Of a stretch of 64,000 nt of DNA, positions 5,791 to 56,887 are shown piece after piece. The notes under the pieces were generated by a model. The model was not told where the DNA came from, made no database searches, and worked only from the letters and a program-made list of their open reading frames with translations. Where the stretch lies: the NCBI GenBank assembly GCA_035473115.1, contig DATION010000006.1, positions 64,521 to 128,520 on the forward strand, read 5' to 3'. Numbering within the stretch: the first letter of the stretch is position 1; each line of letters opens with the position of its first letter. The stretch comes from Candidatus Udaeobacter sp. (GTDB lineage Bacteria > Patescibacteriota > Patescibacteriia > Magasanikbacterales > GWA2-37-8). The translations under genes and the position numbers were made by a program.

Positions 5791-6157
5791 TTAGAAGCTA
5801 AAAACATAATAAATTTTTGCAAACCAAGTACCTCAAAATTAACGGTTCTCAAGTAAGTCCAAAAAGGAAACTACTTGCCTCGCTTAGCGAGGGGAAGAGA
5901 AAAGAGCAATCAAGATTTGATTTCTCTTTTTTCTTTCTAATCAGGTATTAGGAAGAAAAAAGTTTTCCAACAATTCAAAGATTGGAAAGGCACGTTGACA
6001 ACATAAATGTGACAAAGACCACACTTCAAAATTAACTTCGGTTAATGGAGAAGTACCCAAGTCTATTCTAAAAAAACTCGAGTTATTTCGAGTATAAATA
6101 AAAAATAAATCTATAATGATAACTTGTTCAGATTGAACAAATATTAAACTCTTTTTA

Positions 6158-7684
<1,527 letters not shown>

Positions 7685-14808: not shown

Positions 14809-14834
14809 CCTTTATAAAAAATAAAAAAATAATA

Positions 14835-21572: not shown

Positions 21573-21611
21573 GCAATCTATAATTAAAAATTAAGAATCA
21601 GCAAAAAATTG

Positions 21612-21620
21612 TGGTATAAT
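21612..21620 (+). promoter_or_regulatory. Extended -10 element (TGgTATAAT) 7 nt before the ATG of surface protein 3: possible leaderless transcript
   Basis: TGGTATAAT at 21612-21620, ATG at 21627, and no SD in between. Confidence 0.3.
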
Positions 21621-21626
21621 ATCTAT

Positions 21627-40980: not shown

Positions 40981-41029
40981 GCTGGTTTAGGGGTTGACTT
41001 TTATCTAAAATAAGAGTACAATAGCCTGC

Positions 41030-41698
41030 TTGAGATTTAACTCATTTATAGAAATTATGAAAAATTTTCATCGAGGCGACAAGTCTGGCGGCGGCAGAGA
41101 TCATAAAGGTTTTGGCAAGAGAAATTCCGGCGGCCATGGCTTTGGCGGTGGCAATAGGGGTTTTGGCGGCAGAGACGGTGAAAGACCAAATATGATGTTT
41201 AAGGCGGTCTGCAGCCAGTGCGGCAAAGATTGCCAATTGCCTTTTAAACCAAATGGCAACCGACCAGTTTTTTGCAGCACCTGTTTTGAAATCCAAAAAA
41301 ATGAAAACCCCGACAGATCAGAAAGAAAGAGTTTCAGTAAGCCTAAATTTGAGGATAAAAAATTGTTTGAAGCGGTTTGCGGCAACTGCGGCGATAACTG
41401 TTTAGTGCCGTTTCGTCCGTTTCCTGGCAAGCCAGTTTTTTGCAAGAAATGTTTTGATAAAGATGATAAGGTTGTAAATCATACTATTGTTAAAACTGAT
41501 AATAGTAATAATAAAAATTTCGAACAGCTTAAATCTGAGATTGAAATGATTAATATCAAGCTGGATAGAATTTTGCGAGAGCTGACCCCCAAAGAAGATC
41601 GTGAAGAAATCGAAGAAGAAGTTGAAGAAATCGTAAAAGAAGCTCCTAAAAAAACTGCTAAACCTTCCAAAAAATCAACTGCCAAAAAGAAAAAATAA
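41030..41698 (+). CDS. Gly/Arg-rich (RGG-like) protein with two CxxC...CxxCF zinc-ribbon repeats and a Lys-rich tail
   Basis: GFGGGNRGFGGRDGERP low-complexity N-terminus. Two copies of AVCxxCGxxCxxPFxPxxxxPVFCxxCF. KKSTAKKKK tail. Confidence 0.6.
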   Translation: MRFNSFIEIMKNFHRGDKSGGGRDHKGFGKRNSGGHGFGGGNRGFGGRDGERPNMMFKAVCSQCGKDCQLPFKPNGNRPVFCSTCFEIQKNENPDRSERKSFSKPKFEDKKLFEAVCGNCGDNCLVPFRPFPGKPVFCKKCFDKDDKVVNHTIVKTDNSNNKNFEQLKSEIEMINIKLDRILRELTPKEDREEIEEEVEEIVKEAPKKTAKPSKKSTAKKKK

Positions 41699-42461: not shown

Positions 42462-43601
42462 ATGTACCATCAAGTCTCCAAAAGGGCAGTCGGTTTAGCA
42501 ATGACATTTGCTTTGTTGGCCAATGTGGCAGCATTGCCTGTTTTAGCCGAAGAAACAGGTTCTGCTTCTACTGTGGTAAAAACCAGATCAGAAGTTAATT
42601 TTTGTACTCGTTTAGAACAGTCTTCTACCAAACTAGACAGTAACATGGCTGATCGAACAAAAAAATTAGACGATCAATCTAATTTAAGAAATACTAATTT
42701 AGAAAAAAATCGCTCTGATCGCGATGAAAAGTTAACTGAACAGAGATCTAATTCTGATAAAAATGTTGCTGAGCGTTACGCTAAAATGGAAGGCAAAGCA
42801 AAAAATGATGCTCAAAGAATCGCTCTAGAAAATTTCCATACAGCCATGCTAGCTGCTCTTAACACCAGAAAAGCGGCTTTTGATGCTGCTCGGACCACTT
42901 TTCGAGCCGGTATAGATGAAGCGATTGCTGCTCGCAAAGCTGCTATACAGTCTGCCGTAAGATCTTTCCAGACAGCTTTAAAAGATGCTGAAACAAAAGC
43001 TAAAGCTGATTGTGCGGGTGGAGTTGCTCCGGCAACTGCTAAGACCAATTTTGAAACTGCTGTCAAAACTGCTCGGGAAAAATTTGCGGCTGATCGCAAA
43101 GCGGTAGAAAGATTAGGTGTTAATTTAAAAACATTAACTGACGCGCGCAAAACAGCTCTAGACAAAGCTCGGGCTGACTTTAAAGCTGCCGTTGAAAAAG
43201 CTACTAAAGACCTAAAAGCTGCTTTGCTGGCAGCTAGACCAGTTAAAACAATTAATAAAGATGGTGATCACAAGACAACAACAACTGTTAGAAATGACGA
43301 CAATCAAAAAACAGAAGAACCTAAAGAAGTTAAGCCGGAACATGAACCTAAAAAGGTTGCCTTACAAATTGTCGGCTCTGCTTTTCAACCACTAAGTCAA
43401 TCTGTGGTCAAAGGCGATACGGTTGTTTGGACAAACAATGATTCTGTACCTCACACTGTAACGGCGGCTGACGGATCATTTGATAGTGGCACTATCTCTC
43501 CGGGAGCTTCTTATAGTCACACTTTTACTTCAGTTGGAACTGTTAGTTATTCTTGCGCGTTTCATCCTTCAATGCATGGCAGTGTAACTGTAACTGAGTA
43601 G
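42462..43601 (+). CDS. Secreted Ala/Lys-rich coiled-coil protein with C-terminal type-1 copper (cupredoxin/plastocyanin-like) domain
   Basis: Signal peptide and a ~230-aa amphipathic helical region. C-terminal domain with Cu ligands H (VPHTVTA) and C-x2-H-x4-M (YSCAFHPSMHG). Confidence 0.75.
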   Translation: MYHQVSKRAVGLAMTFALLANVAALPVLAEETGSASTVVKTRSEVNFCTRLEQSSTKLDSNMADRTKKLDDQSNLRNTNLEKNRSDRDEKLTEQRSNSDKNVAERYAKMEGKAKNDAQRIALENFHTAMLAALNTRKAAFDAARTTFRAGIDEAIAARKAAIQSAVRSFQTALKDAETKAKADCAGGVAPATAKTNFETAVKTAREKFAADRKAVERLGVNLKTLTDARKTALDKARADFKAAVEKATKDLKAALLAARPVKTINKDGDHKTTTTVRNDDNQKTEEPKEVKPEHEPKKVALQIVGSAFQPLSQSVVKGDTVVWTNNDSVPHTVTAADGSFDSGTISPGASYSHTFTSVGTVSYSCAFHPSMHGSVTVTE

Positions 43602-43614
43602 TAAATTTACAGTT

Positions 43615-46047
43615 ATGTTTATAGCCCGCCTGAAACAATCGCTAAATATTAAATATTTCATGGCGGGCTATTTGTGCCTGTTGGTATTATTGGCATCTTT
43701 TTACTTTAAAGACTTGGTAATTTTTGCGGATGGAATTTTATTGGTAGCGCTTTATACTGGTTTTGATCTTTTATGGACCTATGCCCGAGACCGAGTCTGG
43801 TATTTGCCGACATCAGCTTGGATATCCGGTTTTGTTTTAACAATTGGCGCTTTTCCTAAACCGCCGCTGTTAGTTTTAATCGTTCTTCCTTTACTGGCCG
43901 TAGCTTCAAAACAGCTGCTGCATTTTGGTAAAAATCGTCATTTGTTTAATCCGGCTGCTTTTGCTTTGGCAGTAATAAGTTTGTTTAATCCAGCTGTTTC
44001 TTGGTGGGCCGTGGCCGGAGCAGTATTGCCTACAATTGCCGGTCTGCAAAAATTAGATTTGGGAATGTGGTTGTTTTTGTTTACATTTTTTGCGGCTCTA
44101 ATTATTTTGTGGAAACAAAATCGTTGGCATATTACTTTGCCTTTTTTATTTTCTTATGCTTTTTTTATCGGAGTGTTTTCTTTGGTTAACGGCGTAGTTT
44201 TGGGCAGGTTGCCGAATGTCCTTTTTTTTCAGATAGCCAATGGCGCAGTTCTTTTCTTTTCTACGGTAATGGTGATTGAGCCGATTACTTCAACTTTTTC
44301 AACTAAGCGGCAGGAAATATTATATGGAGCGATGGTTGGTCTGGCAGCTGTAGTGATAATTTATTTTTCTCGTAAGTTTAATTTGGTTAATTTAGACCCG
44401 TTGGTTTTTGGACTTTTAAGTGGAAATTTAATAGCCGGACTTATGTTTTTGCCGGCCCGAAAATTAGCTAAGAATTCATCTGTTAAAAAAGGCTGTTCAA
44501 GTTGTGTTGATTGCAGTTGCAAAGAAGCTGCGCCGGCAAAAATTTCCAGAGAGCCCTCTTATTGGTTTAGAGATGTGCCGGACCAAAATCGGTTTCCGGT
44601 TTTACAAGGTGATAAAGAATTTGATGCCGTAATTGTGGGTGGCGGTATTGCCGGTGTAGCGGTGGCATATTTTTTGGCAAAAAATGGCTTGAGCGCGGCG
44701 GTGCTTGAAGCCGGCACTATCGGCAGCGGTGATTCCAGCTATACTACCGCTTGCGCTACTCGTTTTCTTGATTCGGTTGATGCCAGTTTAAAAGCTTGGG
44801 AAAGCAGCGCCGAAGCTATCGCGATGCTGAAAAAAATAGTTGAAGAAGAGAATATAGATTGCGATTGGCAAGATGTTGATACGATCTGTTTTTCTCGGGA
44901 AACAGATAAAAAATCTTTGAATAATTTTTTGGCCACAGCGCAAAAATTTCAATCTAAGGACAGCTCAATTGAATATTTAGTTAAAGATGAAGCCAGCGCT
45001 TCGGTTGGTGTTCCCGTATCGGCAGCTTATCAAAAAAAATCCGCTGAAGGCATGTTTCATATGCGCAAGCTTTTAATGGCTTTGGCAGAAAGAGCAATAA
45101 AAAACGGAGCTTTATTTTTTGAAGATAGCGAGGCTACTAATTTTACTTTTGGTGATCAGGTCGTAGTTAAAACAAAAAAGGGGGGTATCAAGGCAAAATG
45201 GCTTATTGTCGCCACTGGTTTGCCGCCAGTAAAGTTTTTTCCGGCAGTTAGCAAATTGCTGCGCAGTGCAGTTAGTTATGTTATTGATGTAAAGTTTGCA
45301 GAAAAACCGCCGTTTGCTAAAGCATTTTTTTGGGATGATCAAGATCCATACCATTATTTTCGTTCAGTTGCTGAAAATGAATTTATTTTGGGCGGTGAAG
45401 ATTGGAAAACAAATAGCTCTAAGCCGGATTTAAATCCGCATTTGCAATTGGAAAAATGGTTTAAAAATCTTGTTGGCAGACAGGCATCGTTTAAAGTAGT
45501 TAATAGTTGGCAAGGTTCACTTTTTTATACGCCAGATACTTTGCCTCTGGTCGGGCCTCATCCGAAATACGGAAAAAATATTATTTTTTTAACTGGCTGG
45601 GCTGGGAACGGCACAGCGCAAGGTGTTTTTGCGGCTAGTATGGCAGTTAGTATTATTCAGAAAAAAAATAATCCTTATTATCATCTGTTTGCCTGCGATC
45701 GCAAGTTGTCTTGGCCAGTTGAAAATAATTCAGGTAATTTGTCTGTTTTAGCAAGTGTTGAGACTGGCGCGCTGGCAAAAGAATATTTAGAAAATAAAGG
45801 CAAAATTTTGGAAGTGGCCGGGCAAAAATTAGCGGTGATAAAAACTAACGGGAAGATCAAAGCTTTTTCAGCTCTCTGTCCACACCTTGGCTGTGCTGTT
45901 GGCTGGAATGACACCGAAAACACTTGGGATTGCCCTTGCCACGGGTCACGTTTTGAGTCTGATGGTTCACTTAAGAATGGTCCGGCTAAACGCGGGCTTG
46001 ATCCGGTGGAAATTAAGCTAGAAAATGATCAGATTAAAATTGTTTAA
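43615..46047 (+). CDS. Three-module membrane redox protein: RnfD/NqrB-like polytopic domain + FAD-dependent oxidoreductase + Rieske [2Fe-2S] domain
   Basis: [12 protein letters not shown] and [25 protein letters not shown] resemble the RnfD motifs GQNPFNPAM and [31 protein letters not shown] Cys cluster. [22 protein letters not shown] Rossmann motif. CPHLGC...CPCHGS Rieske motif. Confidence 0.75.
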   Translation: [810 protein letters not shown]

Positions 46048-47413: not shown

Positions 47414-48079
47414 TTAAGCTTTCTTTGTTTTTATTAGGGCAGTTAAAGCTATTAAGGTAGCAATAACGCTGAGCCAAATTGCTATATTTGTTTTTAAGTT
47501 CTCTGAGGTAGTGTTTGAGTTGACAGAGGTCGTAGGCGTTAAGTCATCGATCACTTCTGTTTTTGAGAATGGTCCAAACTTAGAAAAATCCATTTTATCA
47601 TTACTGTTTTTAGTTTGGGTTTGGTTGGGGTCTTGGTCCCAAGAAATTACTGTGCCGTCCGCGTAGGTCTGATAGACCTTCCAATTTAAAACAGTTGGCT
47701 GGCTTGGCACTTTGGCGCTAAAGACAAATTCATCACGCTGATCGGCAGGAACTCTGCCGCCACTCCAAATTATCTCGGTTATTTTTTGTTCATCAACCAT
47801 CCTACCGTCATCATCTTTGGTTTTGTTTCCCGTGATCTGTTTTTTGAGTTCAATTTTCCAGCCCGGTTTTACATTAGGCATGATAAAGCTTAAGCCTTCA
47901 GGCAAAACCAGACGAACTTTAGTGGTAGCCACCGGTTTTTCTGATGGAATTCCTAAATTAAAAGTTTGAAATTTGCCAATTCCAGCTGTATTTGGTTTTA
48001 CCACCGCGTGGGCCATGGCTTGGTTAGCAAAGAGTAATGATGCTGCTAGAATTCCCAGTCCAACTATTTTTTTATTCAT
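47414..48079 (-). CDS. YcnI-like (DUF1775) secreted copper-binding protein with C-terminal TM anchor
   Basis: Signal peptide ...ANQAMA then HAVVKPNTAGIGKFQTFNLGIPSEK, resembling the DUF1775 N-terminus HVxVxP...Y/FQTFxxRVPNEK. His is the first mature residue. C-terminal helix IAIWLSVIATLIALTALI. Confidence 0.6.
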   Translation of the reverse strand: MNKKIVGLGILAASLLFANQAMAHAVVKPNTAGIGKFQTFNLGIPSEKPVATTKVRLVLPEGLSFIMPNVKPGWKIELKKQITGNKTKDDDGRMVDEQKITEIIWSGGRVPADQRDEFVFSAKVPSQPTVLNWKVYQTYADGTVISWDQDPNQTQTKNSNDKMDFSKFGPFSKTEVIDDLTPTTSVNSNTTSENLKTNIAIWLSVIATLIALTALIKTKKA

Positions 48080-48083
48080 ACTT

Positions 48084-48623
48084 TCATTTATTAGTAAATA
48101 TCTTTTTTGTTAAATATATTATAGCTCCTAACATTACAGTAGTTGCCGCATAAAATAACCAGTTTATTTGGGCAGATGATTTTACTGCGGTAGAATCTTT
48201 ATCTAATCGAATGTCATAGGCTAAGTTAAAACTTTGAAAACTGTTGGTTTGGATTGGAGTGCCGGTAAGTTTAATAGTGTAAATTCCTTTATGCGGAAAA
48301 GTATAGGTAATTGCCGGGGCAAAAATACCTTTATAGGATGATCTGCTTTTGGAAAGAGGGGAGGAAAATATTATTTTATTAGTGGTTAAGTCTGTAATAG
48401 AAGCAATACAATTACAGTTATCCGGTACAAATGTTTTTTTGGCATCAGTAATTAAAAATAGCAGATCGGCCGGCTGGCCAACTATTGGGTCATCATCGGG
48501 GTTGATATGCAGCAGTGCATAAATTGAACCGTCGGCCATTAGCTCATGAGCTTGAGCGGGGGAGCAAAGAAAAAATAAACTTGCCCATAACAAAACTATG
48601 AAAGTGGTAAGTTGTTTATGCAT
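48084..48623 (-). CDS. Secreted protein with His as first mature residue (His-brace/CopC-like candidate) and C-terminal TM anchor
   Basis: Signal peptide ...CSPAQA then HELMADGSIYALLH. CNC pair. C-terminal helix. Confidence 0.45.
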   Translation of the reverse strand: MHKQLTTFIVLLWASLFFLCSPAQAHELMADGSIYALLHINPDDDPIVGQPADLLFLITDAKKTFVPDNCNCIASITDLTTNKIIFSSPLSKSRSSYKGIFAPAITYTFPHKGIYTIKLTGTPIQTNSFQSFNLAYDIRLDKDSTAVKSSAQINWLFYAATTVMLGAIIYLTKKIFTNK

Positions 48624-48637
48624 ATGGTAATTTTATA

Positions 48638-48660
48638 ATCTACTACAAATTGTAGTAGAT
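48638..48660. promoter_or_regulatory. 23-bp perfect palindrome (operator candidate) in the divergent intergenic region
   Basis: ATCTACTACAA-A-TTGTAGTAGAT, 11-bp arms, located 15 bp upstream of the start of the minus gene 48084-48623. Contains TACAaatTGTA. Confidence 0.5.
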
Positions 48661-48778: not shown

Positions 48779-49216
48779 ATGAAGGCTAAAAAGATAATTC
48801 TCTCGGTTTTTTTGGTTTTGGTCGTGGCTGCTTATGCTGTTTATCAGCGTTTAGGCGGTTCATCTCAGTCTAATACTCGTACTACAGAAACAAACACCAA
48901 TACTAATACAAACAACAATCAAAATAATCAGGTTGCCTATAAAGACGGCGAATATACCGGAACTGACGCAGACACGATTTTTGGCAAAGTACAAGTTTCT
49001 GTATTGGTTAAAGATGGCAAAATTGTCGATGTTAAATTTTTAGATTTTCCTAAGGATCAGCTTACTTCCAAAAGTATCAGTAATCACTCTTTGCCTATTT
49101 TAAAGACCGAAGTGATTGCCGCTCAAAATGAGAATGTTGATATTGTTTCCGGAGCTACCCAGACTAGCGAAGGCTTTAAACAATCTTTGGCTTCAGCTTT
49201 AGTAAAAGCAAAATAA
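48779..49216 (+). CDS. Secreted FMN-binding domain protein (flavinylation substrate)
   Basis: N-terminal TM/signal, T/N-rich linker, FMN_bind domain YKDGEYTGTDADTIFGKVQVSVLVKDGKIVDVKFL...VDIVSGATQTSEG with the S-G-A-T flavinylation motif. Confidence 0.8.
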   Translation: MKAKKIILSVFLVLVVAAYAVYQRLGGSSQSNTRTTETNTNTNTNNNQNNQVAYKDGEYTGTDADTIFGKVQVSVLVKDGKIVDVKFLDFPKDQLTSKSISNHSLPILKTEVIAAQNENVDIVSGATQTSEGFKQSLASALVKAK

Positions 49217-49230
49217 GTAGAATAAATTTT

Positions 49231-49977
49231 GTGCTCAAACAAACCAGACTGTTAATGGGCATGCCTATTACCGTAGAAATTTGCGATTTGTCCGCTAATT
49301 CAGAAGCGGTAGATAAAGTTTTTGATTACTTTGATTACGTGGACAAAAAATTCAGTACTTATAAAGACGATAGCGAGATAAGCGGAATTAATAATGGAAA
49401 AATTCGGGAGAAAGATTATAGCGCTGACATGAAAGAGGTTTTTGGGCTTTGCGAGCAGACAAAAAAAGAAACAAACGGATATTTTGATATCCAGTTGAAA
49501 AATAAAACATACGACCCGTCAGGCTTGGTAAAAGGCTGGGCAGTTTATAATGCCGCCGAAATTTTACGTAAACTTGGCTTTAATAATTTTTACGTCGAAG
49601 CCGGAGGTGATATTCAGGTGAGTGGCCAAAATAGCCAAGGCCAAAATTGGCGTATTGGCATCCGCCATCCTTTTAATGAATCGCAAATAATCAAGACTGT
49701 CTCGTTAAGTAGCGAAGGCGTAGCCACTTCCGGAACTTATATTCGCGGCCAGCATATCTATAACCCATACGATGACAAAAAACCGATTACGGAAATTGTC
49801 AGTTTGACCGTCATCGGGCCAAATATTTATGAAGCTGATCGGTTTGCTACAGCGGCTTTCGCTATGGGCAAAAAGGGGATTAATTTTATTGAAAGTTTAA
49901 AAAATTTAGAAGGGTATATGGTGGACAAAGACGGTGTGGCTACTATGACCAGTAATTTTGAAAAATATTTAGCTTAG
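49231..49977 (+). CDS. apbE: FAD:protein FMN transferase (ApbE family)
   Basis: LMGMPITVEI, FSTYKDDSEISGIN, GGDIQVSG and VATSGTYIRGQHIYNP are ApbE hallmarks. Confidence 0.85.
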   Translation: MLKQTRLLMGMPITVEICDLSANSEAVDKVFDYFDYVDKKFSTYKDDSEISGINNGKIREKDYSADMKEVFGLCEQTKKETNGYFDIQLKNKTYDPSGLVKGWAVYNAAEILRKLGFNNFYVEAGGDIQVSGQNSQGQNWRIGIRHPFNESQIIKTVSLSSEGVATSGTYIRGQHIYNPYDDKKPITEIVSLTVIGPNIYEADRFATAAFAMGKKGINFIESLKNLEGYMVDKDGVATMTSNFEKYLA

Positions 49978-49993
49978 TGAGTGTTTAAATTAT

Positions 49994-51514
49994 ATGCTTA
50001 AATTCATTGATCAATTCCTGAATCGGATCACGATGTATCGGTTGGTTCTTTATTATGTATCCGGTCTGTGGGTGATCGCATTTATTTTCAGTTTATTGCA
50101 CATTTTGCCGCATGCGCCGTTTGATTTGTTAGTCTCGGCTATAATTATTCACGCTGTCGGTTTTTTAGTTAATGCTATTTTTGCTCGTATTTTTCAGGTT
50201 CCCAGCAATCTGGAATCAGTATATACGACCGGCTTTATTCTGGCTCTCATTATTTCTCCGGCCCAGCCGTTTAGCCGGCTGTTGTTTTTGGGTTTAGCCG
50301 CAACTCTGGCTATGGCTTCAAAATATATTATTGCGATTAATAAAAAGCATCTGTTTAACCCGGCAGCTTTTGCCATCGCATCTGCAGCTATTGTCGCCGG
50401 ACAATCAGCCAATTGGTGGGTGGGCAATCTGTATATGGCGCCATTTGTTCTGCTCGGAGGATTTTTAATGGTCAAAAAATTGCGCCGCTGGGATTTGGTT
50501 TTAAGTTTTTTTGTAGTCGCTATTGCTGTTATCTCAACCTCTTTCTTTTTAAAGAAAAGCGATATGATGCTGATATTAAAAGAGGTTCTGTTTTATTCGC
50601 CGATGTTCTTTTTTGCCTGTGTGATGCTTACCGAACCGATGACTACACCGCCATCGAGAAACTTAAGAATAATTTATGGCGCTTTGACCGGTTTTTTGTT
50701 TGCTCCGTTTATGCATCTGGGGTCAATTTATTCAACGCCCGAATTAGCTCTTTTGGCCGGTAATATTTTTGTGTATATTGTCAGCCCAAAGTATAAATTA
50801 ATTTTAGAATTAAAAGAAAAAGTTTTAATTGCTCCGGATGTGTATGATTTTTTGTTTAAGCAAGATAAAAAAATGGTATTTAAGCCGGGCCAGTATATGG
50901 AATGGACTTTAGGGCATGAAGACCAGGATTCCAGAGGTATGAGACGGTATTTTACAATTGCTTCTTCTCCGGCCGAAGAATATTTAAGAATGGGTGTAAA
51001 ATTTTATCCTAATGCCAGCAGTTTTAAAAAATCTATCTTGCATCTGGAACCAGGCGACAAGATTATTGCTTCTCAACTGGCCGGTGATTTTGTTTTGCCT
51101 AGTAATAAAGATAAAAAATTAGTTTTTATAGCCGGCGGTATTGGCATTACTCCTTTTCGGAGCATGGTAAAAGATCTTTTGGATAGAAAAGAAAAAAGAG
51201 ATATAATTTTGATTTATTCAAACTACAGACCAGTCGATATCGTTTATCGAGATGTTTTGGATCAGGCCGAGCGAGAACTGGGAATTAAAACAATTTATAC
51301 GGTGACAGATTTGGCATCTTGTCCGGATGATTGGCCATGTGAACGAGGTTTTATTGATGAACAAAAAATTATGCGTTTAATCCCGGATTATAAAGAAAGA
51401 ACTTTTTATCTATCCGGTTCTCATTCAATGGTAGTTGCGTTTGATGAAAATCTGCGCAAGATAGGAATTAAAAAAATGCAGATTAAAAAAGATTTTTTCC
51501 CTGGGTTTGTTTAA
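49994..51514 (+). CDS. RnfD/NqrB-like membrane domain fused to an FNR-type FAD/NAD(P)H oxidoreductase domain
   Basis: KHLFNPAAFAIAS and VMLTEPMTTPPSRNLRIIYGALTGF (RnfD-like). C-terminal RRYFTIASSP (RxYS FAD motif) and FIAGGIGITPFRSM (NAD-binding). Confidence 0.75.
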   Translation: MLKFIDQFLNRITMYRLVLYYVSGLWVIAFIFSLLHILPHAPFDLLVSAIIIHAVGFLVNAIFARIFQVPSNLESVYTTGFILALIISPAQPFSRLLFLGLAATLAMASKYIIAINKKHLFNPAAFAIASAAIVAGQSANWWVGNLYMAPFVLLGGFLMVKKLRRWDLVLSFFVVAIAVISTSFFLKKSDMMLILKEVLFYSPMFFFACVMLTEPMTTPPSRNLRIIYGALTGFLFAPFMHLGSIYSTPELALLAGNIFVYIVSPKYKLILELKEKVLIAPDVYDFLFKQDKKMVFKPGQYMEWTLGHEDQDSRGMRRYFTIASSPAEEYLRMGVKFYPNASSFKKSILHLEPGDKIIASQLAGDFVLPSNKDKKLVFIAGGIGITPFRSMVKDLLDRKEKRDIILIYSNYRPVDIVYRDVLDQAERELGIKTIYTVTDLASCPDDWPCERGFIDEQKIMRLIPDYKERTFYLSGSHSMVVAFDENLRKIGIKKMQIKKDFFPGFV

Positions 51515-51529: not shown

Positions 51530-52108
51530 ATGAATACTGATTCAGATGAAAAATTAGTAGCTTTGTATCTGCAGGGAGATGAATCTGCTTTGCGAATTTT
51601 AGTACAAAAATATACCAGTGGTCTTTATAACTTTACGGCTCAGTTTGTCGGTTACGGACAAAACGCCGAAGACGTAGCTCAAGAAGCTTTTATAAAAGCT
51701 TGGAAAAGTTTATCTAAATTTGATTTGACTAAAAAATTTAAACCGTGGCTTTATCAAATTGCCAGAAATTCGGCAATTGATTTTTTACGTCAGCGCAAAT
51801 TAACTATTTCTTTGTCTGATACTTTGGCCGATGATGAAACCAAAAATGAAGCGGATTACTTGGTAGATCCGGCGCCCTTGCCGCTAGCGCAATCAATAAA
51901 TTTGGAAACAAAAGAAGCTGTACAAAATTTAATTAAGTCTTTGCCGTTAATTTATGGCACAGTACTAAAATTATATTACCTAGAAGAGTTTTCTTTGCCA
52001 GAAATTGCCCAAGTTTTAGGGGAACCTTTAGATACGATCAAGAGCCGTCATCGCCGCGCTCTGCTAAGATTAAGAAAATTAACCGCTGAATCTAAATTGT
52101 TTAGCTAA
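51530..52108 (+). CDS. ECF-type RNA polymerase sigma factor (sigma-70 regions 2 and 4)
   Basis: VQKYTSGLYNF...AEDVAQEAFIKAWK (region 2) and LPEIAQVLGEPLDTIKSRHRRALLRLRK (region 4). Confidence 0.85.
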   Translation: MNTDSDEKLVALYLQGDESALRILVQKYTSGLYNFTAQFVGYGQNAEDVAQEAFIKAWKSLSKFDLTKKFKPWLYQIARNSAIDFLRQRKLTISLSDTLADDETKNEADYLVDPAPLPLAQSINLETKEAVQNLIKSLPLIYGTVLKLYYLEEFSLPEIAQVLGEPLDTIKSRHRRALLRLRKLTAESKLFS

Positions 52109-52155
52109 GCCTGATGCTGCACCTTAAATGCTTTTATTAGCGTACTATTAAGTAT

Positions 52156-52587
52156 ATGGACAAGTTTGAGCAAATTATCCGTTCTGCCATAAGTAGTGAA
52201 AGCGTTGCCAGCCAGCCGCCTGGTTTTTTGGCTGAAAAAATACTAATAGCTATTGAAAATAAGAGACGTTTTTATGTTTTGGCTAAGTTGATAATCTATA
52301 GTTTTAGTACGCTATTTTTTTTAGTCGGTTTGATATTGATTTGGCAGGCAGAAAAAATAAATATTATAAATTCGCCGGCTGTTAATTTATTGTCTTTACT
52401 GTTTAGCGATTTTGCGGTGGTTGTTAGTTATTGGCAAGATTACGCCTTATCTTTGATAGAATCTTTTCCGGTTGTGTCGGTGGTTGCCGTGGCCGTTTTT
52501 GTTTGGGCAGTCTGCGCTTCTCTGTGGATGACCGTACGAACTTATTTTTTATTTACTCATCGTTTTATTAAACGCATTCAAGCTTAG
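52156..52587 (+). CDS. Putative membrane anti-sigma factor
   Basis: Immediately downstream of the ECF sigma gene. Cytoplasmic N-terminus followed by TM helices. Confidence 0.4.
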   Translation: MDKFEQIIRSAISSESVASQPPGFLAEKILIAIENKRRFYVLAKLIIYSFSTLFFLVGLILIWQAEKINIINSPAVNLLSLLFSDFAVVVSYWQDYALSLIESFPVVSVVAVAVFVWAVCASLWMTVRTYFLFTHRFIKRIQA

Positions 52588-52609
52588 CTTTAATTTTAAA
52601 ATACTATAT

Positions 52610-53068
52610 ATGACTAATGACATAAAAAAAATTATTGGGACCAAAGCGGTTAAAATATCCTTAACAATTTTTGCCGCGCTGATTGTAATCATAATTATAT
52701 TCTGGTTTGGTATGTTGGTAGGATTCCGAAAAGCTTCTTTTAGCTATCAATGGGGGAAAAATTACCGTAATCTTTTTGAAGCCAAATCAGAACATAAATT
52801 TTCCCGTGAATTGCGGGGTCGAGGTTTTTTTGACGCTCATAGCGCCGTTGGTTCAGTCATTAAAGTTGATACTAGCACATTAATTATCAAAGGCGATGAT
52901 AATATTGAAAAAAATATTTTTATTAGCGACCGCACCGTAATTCGCCGAGGCCAAGACAGTGTTATGTTCAATGATCTCAAAGCTGATGACAGAGTTGTTG
53001 TGCTGGGTGTACCTAGCAGTACTGGCCAGATTGAAGCCAGATTAATTAGGGTTATTTCTAAACCATAA
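52610..53068 (+). CDS. Hypothetical secreted protein with a conserved ~70-aa beta-rich C-terminal domain (paralog of 57074-57514)
   Basis: N-terminal TM anchor. C-terminal GSVIKVDTSTLIIKGDD...DLKADDRVVVLG...GQIEARLIRV aligns to the C-terminus of ORF 57074. Confidence 0.45.
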   Translation: MTNDIKKIIGTKAVKISLTIFAALIVIIIIFWFGMLVGFRKASFSYQWGKNYRNLFEAKSEHKFSRELRGRGFFDAHSAVGSVIKVDTSTLIIKGDDNIEKNIFISDRTVIRRGQDSVMFNDLKADDRVVVLGVPSSTGQIEARLIRVISKP

Positions 53069-53087
53069 ATTATTTAGATATATTACT

Positions 53088-54893
53088 ATGGTTCATAAAA
53101 TTGTTGATTGGCTTAAAAAGCATAAAATTTTAGCTCTTGTCTTATTCGTTGCATTACTTTTGGGTGGTAATTATATTTATAAAAAAATAAAAGGAAACGC
53201 TAGTCTGACTAGTTATGTTTTGGGTACAGTAACAAAAGGAACTCTGATTAATTCCGTTTCCGGCAGCGGCCAAGTTTCGGTAACTGATCAGGTTGATGTT
53301 AAATCAAAAGTGAGCGGAGAAGTGACCAGTGTTTCGGTTGCGCTTGGACAGGATATATCCGTCGGCACCATTTTGGCGTCAGTAGATGCTCGTGACGCGC
53401 AGCGGGCAGTGCGTAATGCGCAAACTGATTTGCAAACTGCCAAGCTTGAGCTGGACAAATTACTTGCGCCGACCGATGAGCTGACTTTATTGCAAGCAGA
53501 GAATTCTTTGGCGCAGACAAAAGAGTCAGAACAAAAATCCGAAGATGATCTAAAAAAAGCGTATGAAGATGGTTTTAACACTATTTCTAATGCTTTTTTA
53601 TCTTTGCCTGCCGTTATGACTGGTGTGCAAGATATACTTTTTGCTAACTCTTTTAATTTTAGCCAAGCTAATATAGATTTTTATGCCGGCGCGGTTAAAA
53701 GTTACGATGACAGAGTAACTCAATATCGCGATGACGCTTATGATAAATACCAAACAGCTCGCGCGGCTTATGATAAAAATTTTGATGATTATAAATCGGT
53801 CACTAGATTTTCTGATACCAGCACTATTGAAAAAAATATTACTGAAACTTATGACACTACAAAATTAATTTCCGAAGCTGTAAAAAGCGCTAATAATTTA
53901 ATTCAATTTTATCAAGATAGATTGACTGAGCATAATCTTAAACCTAGTTCAATTTCTGTTACTCATATTTCTAGTCTCAATTCTTATACTGGCACTGCCA
54001 ACAATCACCTTTCCAATTTGTTGGCTATAAAACAGACGATTAAAAATTCTCAGGATTCTATTTTAAATGCCCAGAGAACTATCGCGGAAAAAGAGTTGTC
54101 ATTGGATAAGATAAAAAATGGTCCAGACGATTTGGATATTCGGGCCAAACGAATAGCTGTCCAGCAGAAAGAAGACGCACTGGTTTCTACTCAGCAAGCT
54201 TTGGCAGATCATTATATCCGCGCGCCATTTGCCGGCATAGTTGCCAAATCAGATTTAAAAAAAGGGGATTCAATTTCTTCCGGCAGCGCAGTGATTACTT
54301 TGATAACCAAGCAGCATACCGCGCAAATTTCTTTAAACGAGGTTGATGCCGCCAAAATTAAAGTCGGCCAAAAAGTGAATGTAACCTTTGATGCTATTGA
54401 TGGTCTAAGTATTTCCGGCCAAGTTGCCGAAGTCGATACTATTGGCTCTGTTTCTCAGGGAGTAGTTACTTATAATGTTAAAATTGTTCTTGATACCCAA
54501 GATGATAGAATAAAATTGGGAATGAGTGTCAGTGCCGCTATTATTACCGATATTAAGCAAGATGTTCTTATTGTGCCAAGCAGCGCGGTAAAAACTCAAA
54601 ATGGGGTAAGCTATGTTGAACAGCTTGATCAAACAATTCAAAACCCAAGCAGTCAAGGTGTCACTTCAGCCGTTGCTCCGCACGAGCAGATGGTTCAAGT
54701 CGGTGCCTCTAACGATACTCAGACGGAAATAATTTCCGGCCTTAAAGAAGGTGATCAGATCATAGTTAGAACTATCGCTGCTTCTGCAGCCAAACCGGCA
54801 ACTACTCAGGCGCCAAGTTTATTTGGCGGCGCTGGAGGAGGTAATAGGAATTTTGGCGGCGGAGGTGGAGCTAGAGTTCCAGCAGGGAGATAA
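53088..54893 (+). CDS. Efflux periplasmic adaptor (HlyD/MacA-type membrane fusion protein) with Gly-rich C-terminal tail
   Basis: N-terminal TM anchor, long coiled-coil, biotinyl-like and beta-barrel segments (RAPFAGIVAKSDLKKGD, VIVPSSAV). Ends in GGAGGGNRNFGGGGGA. Confidence 0.75.
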   Translation: MVHKIVDWLKKHKILALVLFVALLLGGNYIYKKIKGNASLTSYVLGTVTKGTLINSVSGSGQVSVTDQVDVKSKVSGEVTSVSVALGQDISVGTILASVDARDAQRAVRNAQTDLQTAKLELDKLLAPTDELTLLQAENSLAQTKESEQKSEDDLKKAYEDGFNTISNAFLSLPAVMTGVQDILFANSFNFSQANIDFYAGAVKSYDDRVTQYRDDAYDKYQTARAAYDKNFDDYKSVTRFSDTSTIEKNITETYDTTKLISEAVKSANNLIQFYQDRLTEHNLKPSSISVTHISSLNSYTGTANNHLSNLLAIKQTIKNSQDSILNAQRTIAEKELSLDKIKNGPDDLDIRAKRIAVQQKEDALVSTQQALADHYIRAPFAGIVAKSDLKKGDSISSGSAVITLITKQHTAQISLNEVDAAKIKVGQKVNVTFDAIDGLSISGQVAEVDTIGSVSQGVVTYNVKIVLDTQDDRIKLGMSVSAAIITDIKQDVLIVPSSAVKTQNGVSYVEQLDQTIQNPSSQGVTSAVAPHEQMVQVGASNDTQTEIISGLKEGDQIIVRTIAASAAKPATTQAPSLFGGAGGGNRNFGGGGGARVPAGR

Positions 54894-54938
54894 AAATAGT
54901 TAAGACTGTATATATCTACGGATGTAAACTCATTCTTT

Positions 54939-55649
54939 ATGATTGAAATAAAAAATGTTGTAAAGACATATAAAAGCGGTGATGGCACGGAATTTCAAGC
55001 CTTAAAAGGTGTCAGTTTTAAAATTGAAGATGGAGAGTTTGTGGCCATTATGGGGCCATCCGGGTCAGGAAAATCAACTTTGATGCATATTCTTGGCGCT
55101 TTAGATACGCCGACAAGCGGCAGTTATTTTCTTGATAATAAAGACATGTCTGCGCTTTCTGAAGATGAACTGGCTGATATTCGCAAAGGAAAGATCGGAT
55201 TTGTTTTTCAAGCTTTTAATCTTTTACCGCGAGCTACAGTGCTGCGTAATGTTATGTTGCCATTAGTATATAATGGAGTTCATCATACCGAGAGGCAAGA
55301 ACGGGCGGAAGCTGCTTTAAAGGCTGCCGGACTAGATGAAAGCCGCTTTCACAATCTTTCCAATCAGCTTTCCGGAGGACAGATTCAGCGTGTGGCTATT
55401 GCCAGAGCTTTGGTAAATAATCCAGCACTAATTTTGGCCGATGAACCAACCGGAAATCTTGATACCAAAACCGGAGAAATAGTTTTGGGTACATTTCAAA
55501 AACTTAATTTGGAACAAGGCCGAACAATTGTTCTGATTACCCACGAACCGGATGTGGCGCAACACGCGCAGCGGATTATTTTTATTAAAGACGGCCAGAT
55601 TTTGAGTGATTCTAAAAATCATACGCAAAAAATAATTAAGAATTTATAG
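54939..55649 (+). CDS. ABC transporter ATP-binding protein (MacB/LolD-type)
   Basis: GPSGSGKSTL Walker A, LSGGQIQRVAIARAL signature and ILADEPTGNLD Walker B. Confidence 0.9.
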   Translation: MIEIKNVVKTYKSGDGTEFQALKGVSFKIEDGEFVAIMGPSGSGKSTLMHILGALDTPTSGSYFLDNKDMSALSEDELADIRKGKIGFVFQAFNLLPRATVLRNVMLPLVYNGVHHTERQERAEAALKAAGLDESRFHNLSNQLSGGQIQRVAIARALVNNPALILADEPTGNLDTKTGEIVLGTFQKLNLEQGRTIVLITHEPDVAQHAQRIIFIKDGQILSDSKNHTQKIIKNL

Positions 55650-55663
55650 TATTTAAAATTATT

Positions 55664-56887
55664 ATGACACCAGCTGATTTACTAGAAGAAACTTATTCTG
55701 CTCTATCCTCAAATAAGGCTAGATCTTTTTTAACAATTTTAGGAATAGTTATCGGGATTGGATCAGTAATTGCTATGATATCTATTGGCCAAGGAGCCCA
55801 GACATCTATCTCGGACCGAATTCAATCCATTGGTTCTGATTTGGTTATGATTACTCCCGGAGCGCAGCGTGGAATTGGCGCTCAAGTCAGTTCTGGCCGC
55901 GGCGCGGCGCGTACTCTTACTCAAGAAGATGCCGATGCCGTGGCGAAAGAAATAAGCACAGCCAAAGCTGTGGCTCCGGAAATTTCTGGTCGTTATCAAG
56001 TAACTGCCAAAGGAAAAAATACCAACACCTCTGTGGTTGGTGTTTCGCCAACTTATCCCAGTGTTAGAAATTTAGAAGTAGATCAAGGTTCATTTGTTTC
56101 CGATCAGAACTTGCTTAGCCTTTCCAAAGTGGCGGTGCTTGGCCCGACAGCCCGTGATGATCTTTTCGGAGCCGATGCGGATGCTATCGGACAAGTAATT
56201 CGCATTAAAAATATTGAATTTAAAATTATTGGTATTACTAAACCAAAAGGCGGCAGTGGTTTTGGCAGCCAAGATGATATGATTTTTATTCCGCTTACCA
56301 GCGCGCAGCGGTTTTTGGCTGGTGAAAATTATGTCACAACCATAAGTGTGCAAGCAATCAGCTCGGATTCTATGTCTGAGACGCAGCAGCAAATTACCGA
56401 CTTGTTATTAGCGCGTCATCATATTTCTGATCCGCAATCAGCTGATTTTAGTACGTTAAATCAGGCTGATATTATTGCTACAGCCTCAAGCATTACTGGA
56501 ACATTTACTATTTTATTAGCAGCTGTAGCCGGGATATCGCTAGTAGTAGGTGGGATTGGCATTATGAATATGATGCTAACAACAGTTACAGAAAGAACCA
56601 GAGAGATCGGTTTGCGCAAAGCCATTGGCGCTAAACGTTCTGAAATTAATCTGCAATTTCTGATTGAAGCGATAATGTTAACCTGTATTGGAGGATTGGT
56701 TGGTGTAATACCAGGCTGGTCAGTTTCGTTTGGCATCAGTTATTTGGGAATTTTGCAGACTAGTGTTTCTTTATATTCTGTTTTGTTGGCTTTTGGAGTT
56801 TCGGCCGCAATCGGGATTATTTTTGGCTATTTTCCGGCGCGACGCGCAGCTGGTCTTAATCCGATTGAAGCTTTACGTTACGAATAA
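55664..56887 (+). CDS. ABC transporter permease (MacB/FtsX-like)
   Basis: N-terminal TM, large periplasmic domain, and a C-terminal 3-TM FtsX domain with GxGIMNMML. Confidence 0.85.
   Translation: MTPADLLEETYSALSSNKARSFLTILGIVIGIGSVIAMISIGQGAQTSISDRIQSIGSDLVMITPGAQRGIGAQVSSGRGAARTLTQEDADAVAKEISTAKAVAPEISGRYQVTAKGKNTNTSVVGVSPTYPSVRNLEVDQGSFVSDQNLLSLSKVAVLGPTARDDLFGADADAIGQVIRIKNIEFKIIGITKPKGGSGFGSQDDMIFIPLTSAQRFLAGENYVTTISVQAISSDSMSETQQQITDLLLARHHISDPQSADFSTLNQADIIATASSITGTFTILLAAVAGISLVVGGIGIMNMMLTTVTERTREIGLRKAIGAKRSEINLQFLIEAIMLTCIGGLVGVIPGWSVSFGISYLGILQTSVSLYSVLLAFGVSAAIGIIFGYFPARRAAGLNPIEALRYE

What the first reader, a model, noticed from the sequence alone, without database searches (positions are those of the whole stretch)
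48779..51514. Compact extracytosolic flavinylation / electron-transfer operon: FMN_bind substrate, ApbE, and an RnfD-like-FNR fusion
Three co-directional genes with 14-17 bp gaps make up the operon. The first encodes a secreted FMN-binding-domain protein carrying the SGAT motif, where ApbE attaches FMN to Thr. The second is an ApbE FAD:protein FMN transferase. The third is a polytopic RnfD/NqrB-family domain (FNPA and LTEP...YGAL motifs) fused to an FNR-type FAD/NAD(P)H reductase domain. Established knowledge links ApbE, FMN_bind and RnfD/NqrB-like proteins in extracytosolic redox systems (Nqr, Rnf, Listeria-type flavin-based extracellular electron transfer). A single polypeptide that could take electrons from NAD(P)H at the cytoplasmic face and deliver them via an RnfD-like domain to a flavinylated extracellular acceptor would be a minimal NAD(P)H-to-outside electron conduit. 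For an organism without a respiratory chain that is unexpected. The RnfD-like domains here lack the canonical SGAT threonine (YSPM instead), so FMN is probably attached only to the small secreted protein.
Basis: partly seen in the sequence, partly recalled or inferred. Interest (0 to 1): 0.8.

Follow-up and report, generated by a model that had tools for sequence, protein, structure and literature searches.

The report
Known NQR/RNF-like flavin electron conduit
The three genes are real and correctly read, but they are one more copy of the already published "NQR/RNF-like" system, a proposed way of passing electrons from NAD(P)H across the membrane to a flavin-tagged outer protein; it is common in these tiny bacteria and has never been tested in the lab.

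Summary
Three co-directional genes encode an FMN_bind protein with a VDIVSGAT motif, an ApbE flavin transferase, and a 10-helix RnfD/NqrB-like membrane domain fused to an FNR-type reductase.

Profile, structure-model and charge-bias analyses put the FNR domain in the cytoplasm. They put the loop matching RnfD's flavin-attachment site outside.

This is not new. It meets the published definition of the "NQR/RNF-like" system (Méheust 2021; Huang 2024). Those papers already report enrichment in CPR, loss of the RnfD threonine and an NAD(P)H-to-outside model. At least 7,993 homologue clusters exist. The gene triad is conserved in at least 51 of 80 genomic loci across five phyla, including cultured aerobes.

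- The lost threonine aligns to A149 (LYMA|P), not to "YSPM".
- The co-directional gene string continues downstream without a terminator.
- The copper-protein neighbours are a lineage-specific insertion.

Two things go beyond the papers held here:
- The ApbE of this system has no export signal in any of 63 loci, although its substrate is exported.
- Three kb upstream lies a rare paralogous conduit: an RnfD-like domain fused to a DAO flavoenzyme and a Rieske domain, next to a cupredoxin. Split versions of it recur in metagenomes.

Function is inferred, not shown. Interest is low to moderate.

The parts
48779..49216 (+). FMN_bind (NqrC/RnfG-like) protein, 145 aa. It has an N-terminal signal peptide or anchor (aa 1-22), a T/N-rich linker and an FMN_bind domain (aa 69-141).
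   Evidence: PF04205, E 2.8e-9. It scores only 32.5 bits against the PplA model, whose cutoff is 325. A hydrophobic N-terminus is found in 52 of 55 orthologues.
49148..49159 (+). Flavinylation motif SGAT (aa 124-127) within VDIVSGATQTS. Thr127 is the predicted FMN attachment site.
   Evidence: This is the only strict D-x-x-[ST]-[GAS]-A-[ST] match among 52 window ORFs. An [ST]GA[ST] motif, mostly VD(I/L)(V/I)SGA(T/S), is present in 52 of 55 orthologues.
49231..49977 (+). Short, leaderless ApbE-family FAD:protein FMN transferase, 248 aa, GTG start.
   Evidence: PF02424, E 6.6e-43. It aligns to E. coli and Salmonella ApbE structures and keeps the TSGxY, H-I-x-x-P and EAD..AT stretches, but lacks E. 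coli residues of about 105-150. No in-frame room exists for a signal peptide. The 120 best homologues are 238-269 aa long.
49994..50788 (+). RnfD/NqrB-like membrane domain with 10 TM helices (aa 1-265 of the 506-aa fusion).
50429..50443 (+). LYMAP (aa 146-150) in the predicted outer loop. A149 occupies the position of the flavinylated Thr of RnfD, so the covalent FMN site is lost.
   Evidence: HMM alignment to 7zc6_D, where 'GVTTAT|P' aligns with 'GNLYMA|P'. Only 1 of 25 homologues has Ser/Thr at this position.
50795..51514 (+). FNR-type FAD/NAD(P)H reductase domain (aa 268-506), predicted to be cytoplasmic.
43615..46047 (+). Context: a paralogous conduit. It is an RnfD-like membrane domain fused to a DAO-type FAD oxidoreductase and a Rieske [2Fe-2S] domain (810 aa).
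   Evidence: PF03116 at 32.8 bits, PF01266 at E 8.6e-45 and PF00355 at E 9.1e-15. Its membrane domain is 26% identical to that of the FNR fusion, E 1e-10. Only 23 full-length homologues were found. Inside loops carry 11.1 K+R and outside loops 3.3.
42462..43601 (+). Context: a membrane-anchored protein with a C-terminal type-1 cupredoxin domain. It is the conserved upstream partner of the DAO/Rieske fusion.
   Evidence: PF00127, E 9.1e-7. Cupredoxin-domain proteins occupy the same position in L081 and L085.

Best explanation
This is a member of the published 'NQR/RNF-like' transmembrane electron-transfer system, which is associated with protein flavinylation.

The proposed path runs in four steps:
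1. NAD(P)H is oxidised by the FAD of the cytoplasmic FNR domain.
2. Electrons cross the membrane through flavin held non-covalently in the 10-helix RnfD/NqrB-like domain. In real RnfD/NqrB this domain carries a riboflavin near the cytoplasmic side and an FMN near the outer side.
3. Because the domain's own attachment threonine is lost, the outer position is served by the FMN that ApbE attaches to Thr127 of the small FMN_bind protein. That protein is anchored or released at the outer face.
4. The reduced FMN_bind domain passes electrons to an extracytosolic acceptor that is still unknown. Metal ions or a redox protein are candidates.

What is shown here: the domain identities, the fold, the topology by charge bias, loss of the Thr, conservation of the SGAT motif and conservation of the gene triad.

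What is inferred: cofactor content, direction of electron flow, NADH versus NADPH as donor, the acceptor, and where flavinylation happens.

Over 25 homologues, predicted inside loops carry 13.4 K+R and outside loops 1.84. This places both termini and the FNR domain in the cytoplasm, and the loop equivalent to the RnfD flavinylation site outside.

The RnfD Thr aligns to A149.

The only strict flavinylation motif in the window is in the FMN_bind protein. The motif is conserved in 52 of 55 orthologues.

The order FMN_bind, ApbE, fusion is conserved in 51 of 80 loci from Patescibacteria, Chloroflexota, Alphaproteobacteria and Spirochaetota. At least 8 more loci (Saccharibacteria-type and other Patescibacteria MAGs, plus one actinobacterium) have a divergent FMN_bind-like protein.

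Orthologous FMN_bind proteins in Gram-negative lineages carry cleavable-looking signal peptides, in L041, L044, L056 and L061. L059 has a lipobox-like signal.

The literature gives the operational definition and the same model (PMC8238504). It also gives an AlphaFold-multimer model that places the FMN_bind flavinylation site at the non-covalent flavin pocket of the RnfD-like subunit (PMC10979944). A review places the RnfD/NqrB riboflavin near the cytoplasmic side and the FMN near the periplasmic side (PMC12174285).
Against: No member of this system has been characterised experimentally in the papers held here.

The ApbE has no signal peptide, lipobox or hydrophobic segment. The same holds for the 63 ApbE genes next to the fusion in other genomes and for the 120 closest database homologues. 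Extracytosolic flavinylation as usually pictured is therefore not supported. The FMN must be attached before export, or ApbE reaches the outside in an unknown way, or the FMN_bind domain is not outside.

Flavin binding by the RnfD-like domain is assumed from homology only.

About 8 loci carry the fusion with no FMN_bind or ApbE next to it. L084, a close relative, is a further such case.

The acceptor is unknown, and the neighbouring genes give no consistent clue.
Confidence: 0.68

Rival explanations
1. An all-cytoplasmic flavoprotein arrangement. The FMN_bind domain faces the cytoplasm (N-out, C-in anchor) and is flavinylated there by the leaderless ApbE. It relays electrons between the FNR FAD and the inner site of the RnfD-like domain. 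The membrane domain alone then reaches the outside, or serves another role such as ion movement.
For: ApbE is leaderless in all 63 loci and in two distinct ApbE subfamilies. Cytoplasmic ApbEs with cytoplasmic substrates are known, for example for Klebsiella fumarate reductase (PMC12052999). The charge bias around the single FMN_bind helix is only modest: 93 K+R on the N flank and 63 on the C flank over 55 proteins.
Against: The N-terminus is MKK followed by a hydrophobic helix, as in NqrC/RnfG, which are extracytosolic (PMC12174285). Several orthologues have cleavable-looking signal peptides or a lipobox-like signal. The linkers are P/T/S/N-rich. The published multimer model docks the domain on the outer face (PMC10979944). 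The conserved W141-W142 loop, equivalent to the FMN site, is on the outside.
Confidence: 0.15
2. The fusion is a self-sufficient NAD(P)H-dependent flavin or metal reductase. On this reading ApbE acts here mainly as a cytoplasmic flavin-trafficking enzyme (an FAD pyrophosphatase or flavin loader for the membrane domain) and not as the modifier of an exported protein. The FMN_bind protein would be modified by some other means, or not at all.
For: The fusion occurs without adjacent FMN_bind or ApbE in about 8 loci and in the close relative L084. ApbE/Ftp-family proteins have reported FAD pyrophosphatase activity; this rests on background knowledge of T. pallidum Ftp (PMC4436053 appeared in the search list but was not read).
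Against: The flavinylation motif is very strongly conserved in the partner protein. The three genes are tightly coupled, with gaps of -4 to +16 nt in most loci. The ApbE residues aligned to the FAD and Mg sites of active transferases are conserved.
Confidence: 0.1
3. It is a remnant or part of a canonical ion-pumping Rnf or Na+-NQR complex.
For: The parts are homologous to RnfD/NqrB, RnfG/NqrC and the NqrF FAD domain. NCBI names the protein 'RnfABCDGE type electron transport complex subunit D'.
Against: No RnfA/B/C/E or NqrA/D/E homologue was found among the window ORFs scanned. The scores are far below the equivalog cutoffs: rnfD 21.7 against 207, and nqrF 47.2 against 295. The flavinylated Thr and a periplasmic insertion of about 35 aa are missing. 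The same three-gene unit stands alone in dozens of genomes.
Confidence: 0.03
4. It is a Listeria-type flavin-based extracellular electron transfer (EET) locus.
For: It has ApbE-type flavinylation of an outer FMN_bind protein. There is a weak PplA model hit at E 5e-8.
Against: The PplA score is 32.5 bits against a cutoff of 325. No Ndh2, EetA/B or quinone-biosynthesis genes lie near it. Listeria FmnB is an extracytosolic enzyme (PMC9973259 abstract); this ApbE is leaderless.
Confidence: 0.02

Closest known systems
NQR/RNF-like flavinylation-associated system (Méheust et al. 2021, eLife, PMC8238504; Huang et al. 2024, PMC10979944)
   Same: It shares every feature that defines that system. These are a PF03116-PF00175 fusion next to ApbE and an NqrC/RnfG-like FMN_bind protein, only two apparent subunits, loss of the flavinylation Thr in the RnfD-like part, enrichment in CPR, and a proposed one-way NAD(P)H-to-outside electron flow.
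   Different: Nothing essential differs. Added here are a much larger census (at least 7,993 clusters against 127 genomes), presence in Alphaproteobacteria and Spirochaetota, and the observation that the system's ApbE is always leaderless. In this genome the system also sits beside a paralogous RnfD-like/DAO/Rieske conduit.
Na+-NQR (NqrB, NqrC, NqrF) and Rnf (RnfD, RnfG) complexes
   Different: There are no RnfA/E or NqrD/E (membrane 2Fe-2S), RnfB/C or NqrA subunits. NqrF's 2Fe-2S ferredoxin domain is missing. The B/D-like domain carries no covalent FMN and lacks a periplasmic insertion of about 35 residues. The reductase is fused directly to the B/D-like domain. The electron path is one-way and not semicircular. 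There is no evidence for ion pumping.
NOX/FRE-type transmembrane reductases (for example Streptococcus pneumoniae NOX, 8qq7/8qq5)
   Different: The membrane domain here is an unrelated 10-TM RnfD-like fold, presumed to bind flavin. In NOX/FRE it is a 6-TM di-haem ferric-reductase domain. The resemblance is one of design, not of membership.
Listeria monocytogenes flavin-based EET (Ndh2, EetA/B, PplA, FmnB)
   Same: An FMN_bind protein flavinylated by an ApbE-family enzyme serves as the outermost protein-bound carrier.
   Different: There is no Ndh2, no quinone step and no EetA/B. The PplA model score is ten-fold below its cutoff. The ApbE here has no export signal.
Cytoplasmic ApbE of Klebsiella pneumoniae (fumarate reductase maturation; reviewed in PMC12052999)
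   Same: It is an ApbE without a signal peptide.
   Different: Its substrate is a soluble cytoplasmic enzyme. Here the only motif-bearing substrate has an export signal or membrane anchor.

Membership tests
NQR/RNF-like system (operational definition of Méheust et al. 2021) | One polypeptide with an N-terminal NqrB/RnfD domain (PF03116) and a C-terminal NqrF-type NAD-binding domain (PF00175) | tested here: met
   PF03116 at 38.2 bits (cutoff 27.7) over aa 151-262, and PF00175 at E 1.4e-13 over aa 378-482.
NQR/RNF-like system (operational definition of Méheust et al. 2021) | Lies in a gene cluster with ApbE (PF02424) and/or an FMN_bind (PF04205) gene | tested here: met
   Both genes lie immediately upstream, with gaps of 14 and 16 nt.
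NQR/RNF-like system (Huang et al. 2024) | The flavinylated Thr of NqrB/RnfD is not conserved in the RnfD-like subunit, while the NqrC/RnfG-like subunit keeps its site | tested here: met
   the Thr aligns to A149. VDIVSGAT is present and conserved in the partner.
NQR/RNF-like system | NAD(P)H-driven electron transfer to the flavinylated outer subunit | not testable with these tools
   No biochemical data exist for any member in the papers held here.
RnfD/NqrB subunit family | 10-TM RnfD/NqrB fold | tested here: met
RnfD/NqrB subunit family | Covalent FMN on a Thr in an S/T-G-A-T motif in the outer loop | tested here: not met
   A149 occupies that position. Only 1 of 25 homologues has Ser/Thr there.
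RnfD/NqrB subunit family | Encoded with and assembled into the six-subunit Rnf or Nqr complex | tested here: not met
   No other Rnf or Nqr subunit was found among the window ORFs scanned. The rnfD and RsxD equivalog scores are far below their cutoffs. The rest of the genome was not visible.
ApbE FAD:protein FMN transferase | ApbE domain with the FAD and Mg-binding residues conserved | tested here: met
   PF02424, E 6.6e-43. Alignment to E. coli and Salmonella ApbE structures keeps the TSGxY, H-I-x-x-P and EAD..AT stretches. That these stretches form the FAD and Mg sites rests on background knowledge of ApbE structures.
ApbE FAD:protein FMN transferase (canonical periplasmic lipoprotein form) | N-terminal signal peptide or lipobox that places the enzyme outside the cytoplasm | tested here: not met
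   The ORF starts 8 residues before the conserved core, with no upstream in-frame start. The same holds in 63 loci and in the 120 closest homologues.
FNR-type reductase (FAD_binding_6 / NAD_binding_1) | Two-domain FNR fold with the FAD motif and the GGxGxxP nucleotide motif | tested here: met
Listeria-type EET (PplA/FmnB/Ndh2/EetAB) | PplA-type lipoprotein, Ndh2 and EetA/B in the locus | tested here: not met
   The PplA model scores 32.5 bits against a cutoff of 325. No Ndh2 or Eet genes are in the neighbourhood.

The most novel reading that the evidence does not exclude
The ApbE of this system has no export signal in any lineage, while its only motif-bearing substrate is an exported or outward-anchored protein. 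The most novel reading not excluded is that FMN is attached to Thr127 in the cytoplasm and the already flavinylated chain is then translocated. Thr127 is 18 residues from the C-terminus, and ApbE is known to accept 7-residue terminal tags (PMC12052999). That order of events has no precedent for ApbE substrates. It would free these reduced-genome bacteria from needing an FAD exporter. Together with the paralogous DAO/Rieske-to-cupredoxin conduit 3 kb upstream, it would make the mini RnfD-like domain a general membrane wire that needs neither haem nor quinone, with interchangeable inner and outer partners.
Probability: 0.3. Interest if true: 0.7.

Novelty: new member of a known kind. Interest (0 to 1): 0.33.

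Why it matters
If the model is right, CPR/Patescibacteria have a two-protein route from cytoplasmic NAD(P)H to the cell exterior that needs neither haem nor quinone. These bacteria lack respiratory chains. Such a route could re-oxidise NAD(P)H, reduce metals for uptake, or feed extracytosolic redox enzymes. That idea is already in the literature, so this locus adds only another example. What could matter more are the two loose ends found here. The first is how a leaderless ApbE can modify an exported protein. The second is that the same mini RnfD-like membrane core also pairs with DAO, Rieske and cupredoxin modules, which hints at a wider family of simple transmembrane electron wires.

Tried and rejected
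- My first hydropathy script merged helices and was useless for topology. I replaced it with helix boundaries from the AlphaFold model plus K/R counts over an alignment.
- The supplementary table of Méheust et al., which lists signal-peptide calls for NQR/RNF-like clusters, is truncated in the held copy. I could not check whether they saw the leaderless ApbE.
- The 179-aa neighbour p179 has no Pfam or PDB match. I did not model it because no homologue alignment was available.
- I considered YcnI and p179 (copper) as the physiological acceptor. I rejected this as unsupported: neither gene was found next to the module in any of the 80 related loci, and neither is present in the nearest syntenic relative L081.
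- I considered a second flavinylation site in the fusion or elsewhere in the window. None was found.
- I considered a Tat route for a pre-folded flavoprotein. Only one orthologue (L061) has an RR-containing n-region.
- I could not run a multimer prediction.
- Two further literature searches found nothing relevant beyond the ApbE review, which mentions cytosolic ApbEs in general.
Full report
**Observation.** All are on the + strand, separated by 14 and 16 nt.

Pfam confirms each assignment:
- ORF1: PF04205 FMN_bind, E 2.8e-9.
- ORF2: PF02424 ApbE, E 6.6e-43.
- ORF3: PF03116 NQR2_RnfD_RnfE at 38.2 bits (cutoff 27.7), plus PF00175 NAD_binding_1 at E 1.4e-13. PF00970 gives a sub-threshold hit.

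NCBIfam gives only family-level resemblance. The PplA, nqrC, rnfD, RsxD and nqrF models all score far below their equivalog cutoffs. The quoted motifs (FNPA, LTEP, YGAL, SGAT) are present.

**Structure and topology of the fusion.** An AlphaFold2 model built on 25 homologues has mean pLDDT 82. It shows ten transmembrane helices (aa 14-263) followed by a beta/alpha FNR domain (aa 268-506).

Using the model's helix boundaries, the loops predicted to face inward carry 13.4 K+R on average over 25 homologues. The loops predicted to face outward carry 1.84. Both termini and the FNR domain are therefore cytoplasmic. The loop at aa 136-148 (GQSANWWVGNLYM) faces out.

**The lost threonine.** A profile of the membrane domain hits RnfD chains 8ahx_D (E 3.5e-7) and 7zc6_D (E 1.6e-3). 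In the 7zc6_D alignment the flavinylation site 'DGVTTAT|P' lies opposite 'GNLYMA|P'. A149, directly before the invariant P150, therefore replaces the Thr. RnfD's following insertion of about 35 residues is also absent.

The conclusion that the membrane domain cannot be flavinylated still holds. It agrees with Huang et al. 2024 (PMC10979944).

The only strict ApbE motif among 52 window ORFs is VDIVSGAT in ORF1, which makes Thr127 the predicted site.

In one-genome-per-species contigs, the 80 best loci come from these groups:
- many Patescibacteria classes;
- Chloroflexota, including cultured Dictyobacter and Ktedonospora;
- Alphaproteobacteria (Mesorhizobium, Kaistia, Phyllobacterium, Methylocapsa);
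- Spirochaetota;
- Actinobacteria (Agreia, Herbiconiux, Arthrobacter, Schumannella).

The order FMN_bind, ApbE, fusion is found in 51 of these loci by direct phmmer search. At least 8 more (Saccharibacteria-type and other Patescibacteria MAGs, plus one actinobacterium) have a divergent FMN_bind-like protein. It carries a VSGSSLT motif and comes with a longer ApbE.

The window itself is from a Parcubacteria-type CPR genome. It has an unlinked 16S gene and a T4SS-pilin-like gene. Its closest syntenic relatives are Parcubacteria. The NCBI record nevertheless labels the contig 'Candidatus Udaeobacter'.

**What is known.** Méheust et al. 2021 (PMC8238504) defined the 'NQR/RNF-like system' as a PF03116-PF00175 fusion in a flavinylation gene cluster. 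[quoted passage not shown] Huang et al. 2024 modelled the Ktedonobacter complex. They noted that the RnfD-like subunit has lost the flavinylation site. They suggested that the FMN on the NqrC/RnfG-like subunit samples the non-covalent flavin pocket of the membrane subunit.

The review PMC12174285 states that RnfD/NqrB holds riboflavin near the cytoplasmic side and covalent FMN near the periplasmic side. This gives the mechanistic template.

No other paper in the held library mentions the system, and none reports experiments on it.

**A problem the held papers do not address.** The ApbE here begins MLKQTRLLMGMPITVE, only 8 residues before the conserved ApbE core. An in-frame stop lies just upstream, so no signal peptide or lipobox is possible.

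The same is true of all 63 ApbE genes that lie next to the fusion in the related loci. Forty-four start at most 11 residues before the core. None of the longer maximal ORFs has a hydrophobic segment upstream of it; the one flagged case, L021, is a pattern-matching artefact.

It holds for two distinct ApbE subfamilies. It also holds for the 120 closest database homologues, which are 238-269 aa long.

The enzyme keeps the stretches that align to the FAD and Mg sites of E. coli ApbE, but lacks about 45 residues of it.

The FMN_bind partner has a hydrophobic N-terminus in 52 of 55 loci. It has cleavable-looking signal peptides in Methylocapsa, Aestuariivirga and spirochaete orthologues, and a lipobox-like signal in L059.

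Three resolutions are possible:
- flavinylation precedes export;
- ApbE gets out by an unknown route;
- the FMN_bind domain is inside.

ApbE can modify 7-residue tags at protein termini in the cytoplasm (PMC12052999). Thr127 is 18 residues from the C-terminus. Modification before export is therefore chemically plausible, but it has not been shown.

**Neighbourhood and acceptor.** Downstream the co-directional string continues with gaps of 14-47 nt. It runs through an ECF sigma gene (51530), two small membrane-protein genes, and HlyD, ABC and FtsX genes. No intergenic terminator-like site appears before about 57530. The same block accompanies the triad in L016 and L063, and parts of it do so in several other CPR loci.

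Recurrent neighbours across the 80 loci:
- a histidine kinase and an OmpR-type regulator (17-21 loci);
- MacB-type ABC transporter and HlyD genes (11-22 loci);
- P-type ATPase (5 loci), VIT1 (4) and Nramp (3).

This gives a faint metal theme, as Méheust et al. noted, but nothing decisive.

The divergently transcribed pair upstream is a YcnI homologue (47414-48079) and p179 (48084-48623). The YcnI homologue keeps the mature N-terminal His of B. subtilis YcnI. p179 has a signal peptide, a mature N-terminal His and a C-terminal anchor, but no family match. The pair suggests copper handling, but it is a lineage-specific insertion. It was not found in the 80 related loci searched. It is also absent from the closest syntenic relative L081. 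There the order is cupredoxin, RnfD-like/DAO/Rieske, CSD, FMN_bind, ApbE, fusion.

The module is also variably present among close relatives. L084 has the fusion without FMN_bind or ApbE, and L085 lacks all three.

**A second conduit.** The 810-aa protein at 43615-46047 joins a paralogous RnfD-like domain to a DAO-type FAD oxidoreductase and a Rieske domain with the b6f/bc1-type CPHLGC...CPCHGS signature. The RnfD-like domain scores 32.8 bits against PF03116. It is 26% identical to that of the FNR fusion (E 1e-10). Its charge bias (11.1 K+R inside against 3.3 outside) gives the same topology.

The protein is rare. Only 23 full-length homologues were found, all in a narrow Parcubacteria clade. 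In the window, L081 and L085 it is preceded by a membrane-anchored cupredoxin-domain protein. In some genomes the Rieske part is a separate gene.

A search of 1.84 billion representatives with its membrane domain found 318 relatives. Most of the closest are stand-alone proteins of 230-300 aa. Profile-profile comparison with the FNR-fusion membrane domain gives 100% probability, E 1.6e-43.

In metagenome loci these stand-alone genes sit next to separate partner genes, confirmed with Pfam:
- DAO genes;
- Rieske genes of 81-93 aa;
- small cupredoxin genes;
- FNR-like genes.

A few CPR loci also place small cupredoxin-like proteins beside the FNR fusion where FMN_bind and ApbE are missing (L050, L071).

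The mini RnfD-like domain therefore looks like a modular membrane core. Its inner partners (FNR, or DAO plus Rieske) and its outer partners (FMN_bind, or cupredoxin) are interchangeable. I found no description of this in the held literature.

**Verdict.** The locus is a new member of the known NQR/RNF-like kind.

The best-supported mechanism is NAD(P)H, then FAD (FNR domain, inside), then flavin(s) in the RnfD-like domain, then FMN-Thr127 of the FMN_bind protein (outside), then an unknown acceptor. Confidence is about 0.68. The main uncertainties are where flavinylation occurs and what the acceptor is.

Interest for the finding as stated is low to moderate. The leaderless ApbE and the DAO/Rieske/cupredoxin paralogue are the parts worth following up.

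Noticed in passing
window 42462-46047 (+); related loci L081, L084-L086, L092-L108: A paralogous conduit: a membrane-anchored cupredoxin protein (42462-43601) followed by an 810-aa fusion of an RnfD-like domain, a DAO flavoenzyme and a Rieske domain (43615-46047). Only 23 full-length homologues were found. Split versions (a stand-alone mini-RnfD of about 265 aa with separate DAO, Rieske of 81-93 aa, small cupredoxin or FNR-like genes) recur in metagenomes. No description was found in the held literature.
   Followed up: yes
window 49231-49977 and 63 ApbE genes in L001-L080: The ApbE associated with the RnfD-FNR fusion never has a signal peptide or lipobox. This holds in two distinct ApbE subfamilies and in every phylum sampled, while the FMN_bind substrate carries an export signal or anchor.
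   Followed up: yes
window 47414-48623 (-): A divergently transcribed pair: a YcnI/DUF1775 homologue (AMA|HAVVKP, with the mature N-terminal His of the B. subtilis copper-binding YcnI) and an unassigned 179-aa protein. The latter also has a signal peptide, a mature N-terminal His (AQA|HELM) and a C-terminal anchor. The pair was not found in the 80 related loci or in L081, so it is a lineage-specific insertion.
   Followed up: partly
window 48639-48659: A near-perfect palindrome, TCTACTACAA-A-TTGTAGTAGA, lies in the 155-nt divergent intergenic region. It overlaps a minus-strand TTGACA-17-TACAAT promoter-like site (48677-48649). It is operator-like and contains TACA...TGTA.
   Followed up: no
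window 51530-56887 (+); L003, L007, L012, L016, L063 and others: A block of an ECF sigma gene, a putative anti-sigma gene (p143), a small membrane-protein gene (p152), and HlyD, MacB-type ABC and FtsX genes follows the fusion with no terminator. The same block, or parts of it, lies next to the triad in several CPR loci. A p152-like gene sits directly upstream of FMN_bind in L003, L028 and L063.
   Followed up: partly
L039, L040, L047, L051, L057, L065-L068, L072, L074: A divergent form of the triad occurs in Saccharibacteria, Uhrbacteria and other Patescibacteria MAGs and in one actinobacterium (Agreia, L074). The FMN_bind-like protein has a C-terminal (K/R)VSGSSLT(P/S)xGF motif, with Ser as the likely acceptor, and comes with a longer (about 290 aa) ApbE that is still leaderless.
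   Followed up: partly
L084 and L085 (close Parcubacteria relatives); L011, L020, L043, L050, L062, L071: The module is variably present. L084 has the RnfD-FNR fusion without FMN_bind or ApbE, and L085 lacks all three in otherwise syntenic DNA. In L050 and L071, small membrane-anchored cupredoxin-like proteins flank the fusion instead.
   Followed up: partly
window 6151-7682 (+): A complete 16S rRNA gene has no adjacent 23S. The contig's proteins are labelled 'Candidatus Udaeobacter sp.' in NCBI. Their closest homologues and synteny are Parcubacteria/Patescibacteria, which suggests a mis-binned MAG contig.
   Followed up: no
window 12766-26111 (+): A T4SS-pilin/Big_5 protein (680 aa) is followed by two giant ORFs of 2,255 and 1,500 aa and by two TSP3-repeat proteins. 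This looks like a cell-surface gene block typical of CPR.
   Followed up: no
window 40060-41698 (+); L086/L089: A TerC-family membrane protein lies next to a treble-clef zinc-finger protein. The same pair lies near the DAO/Rieske fusion in L086/L089.
   Followed up: no
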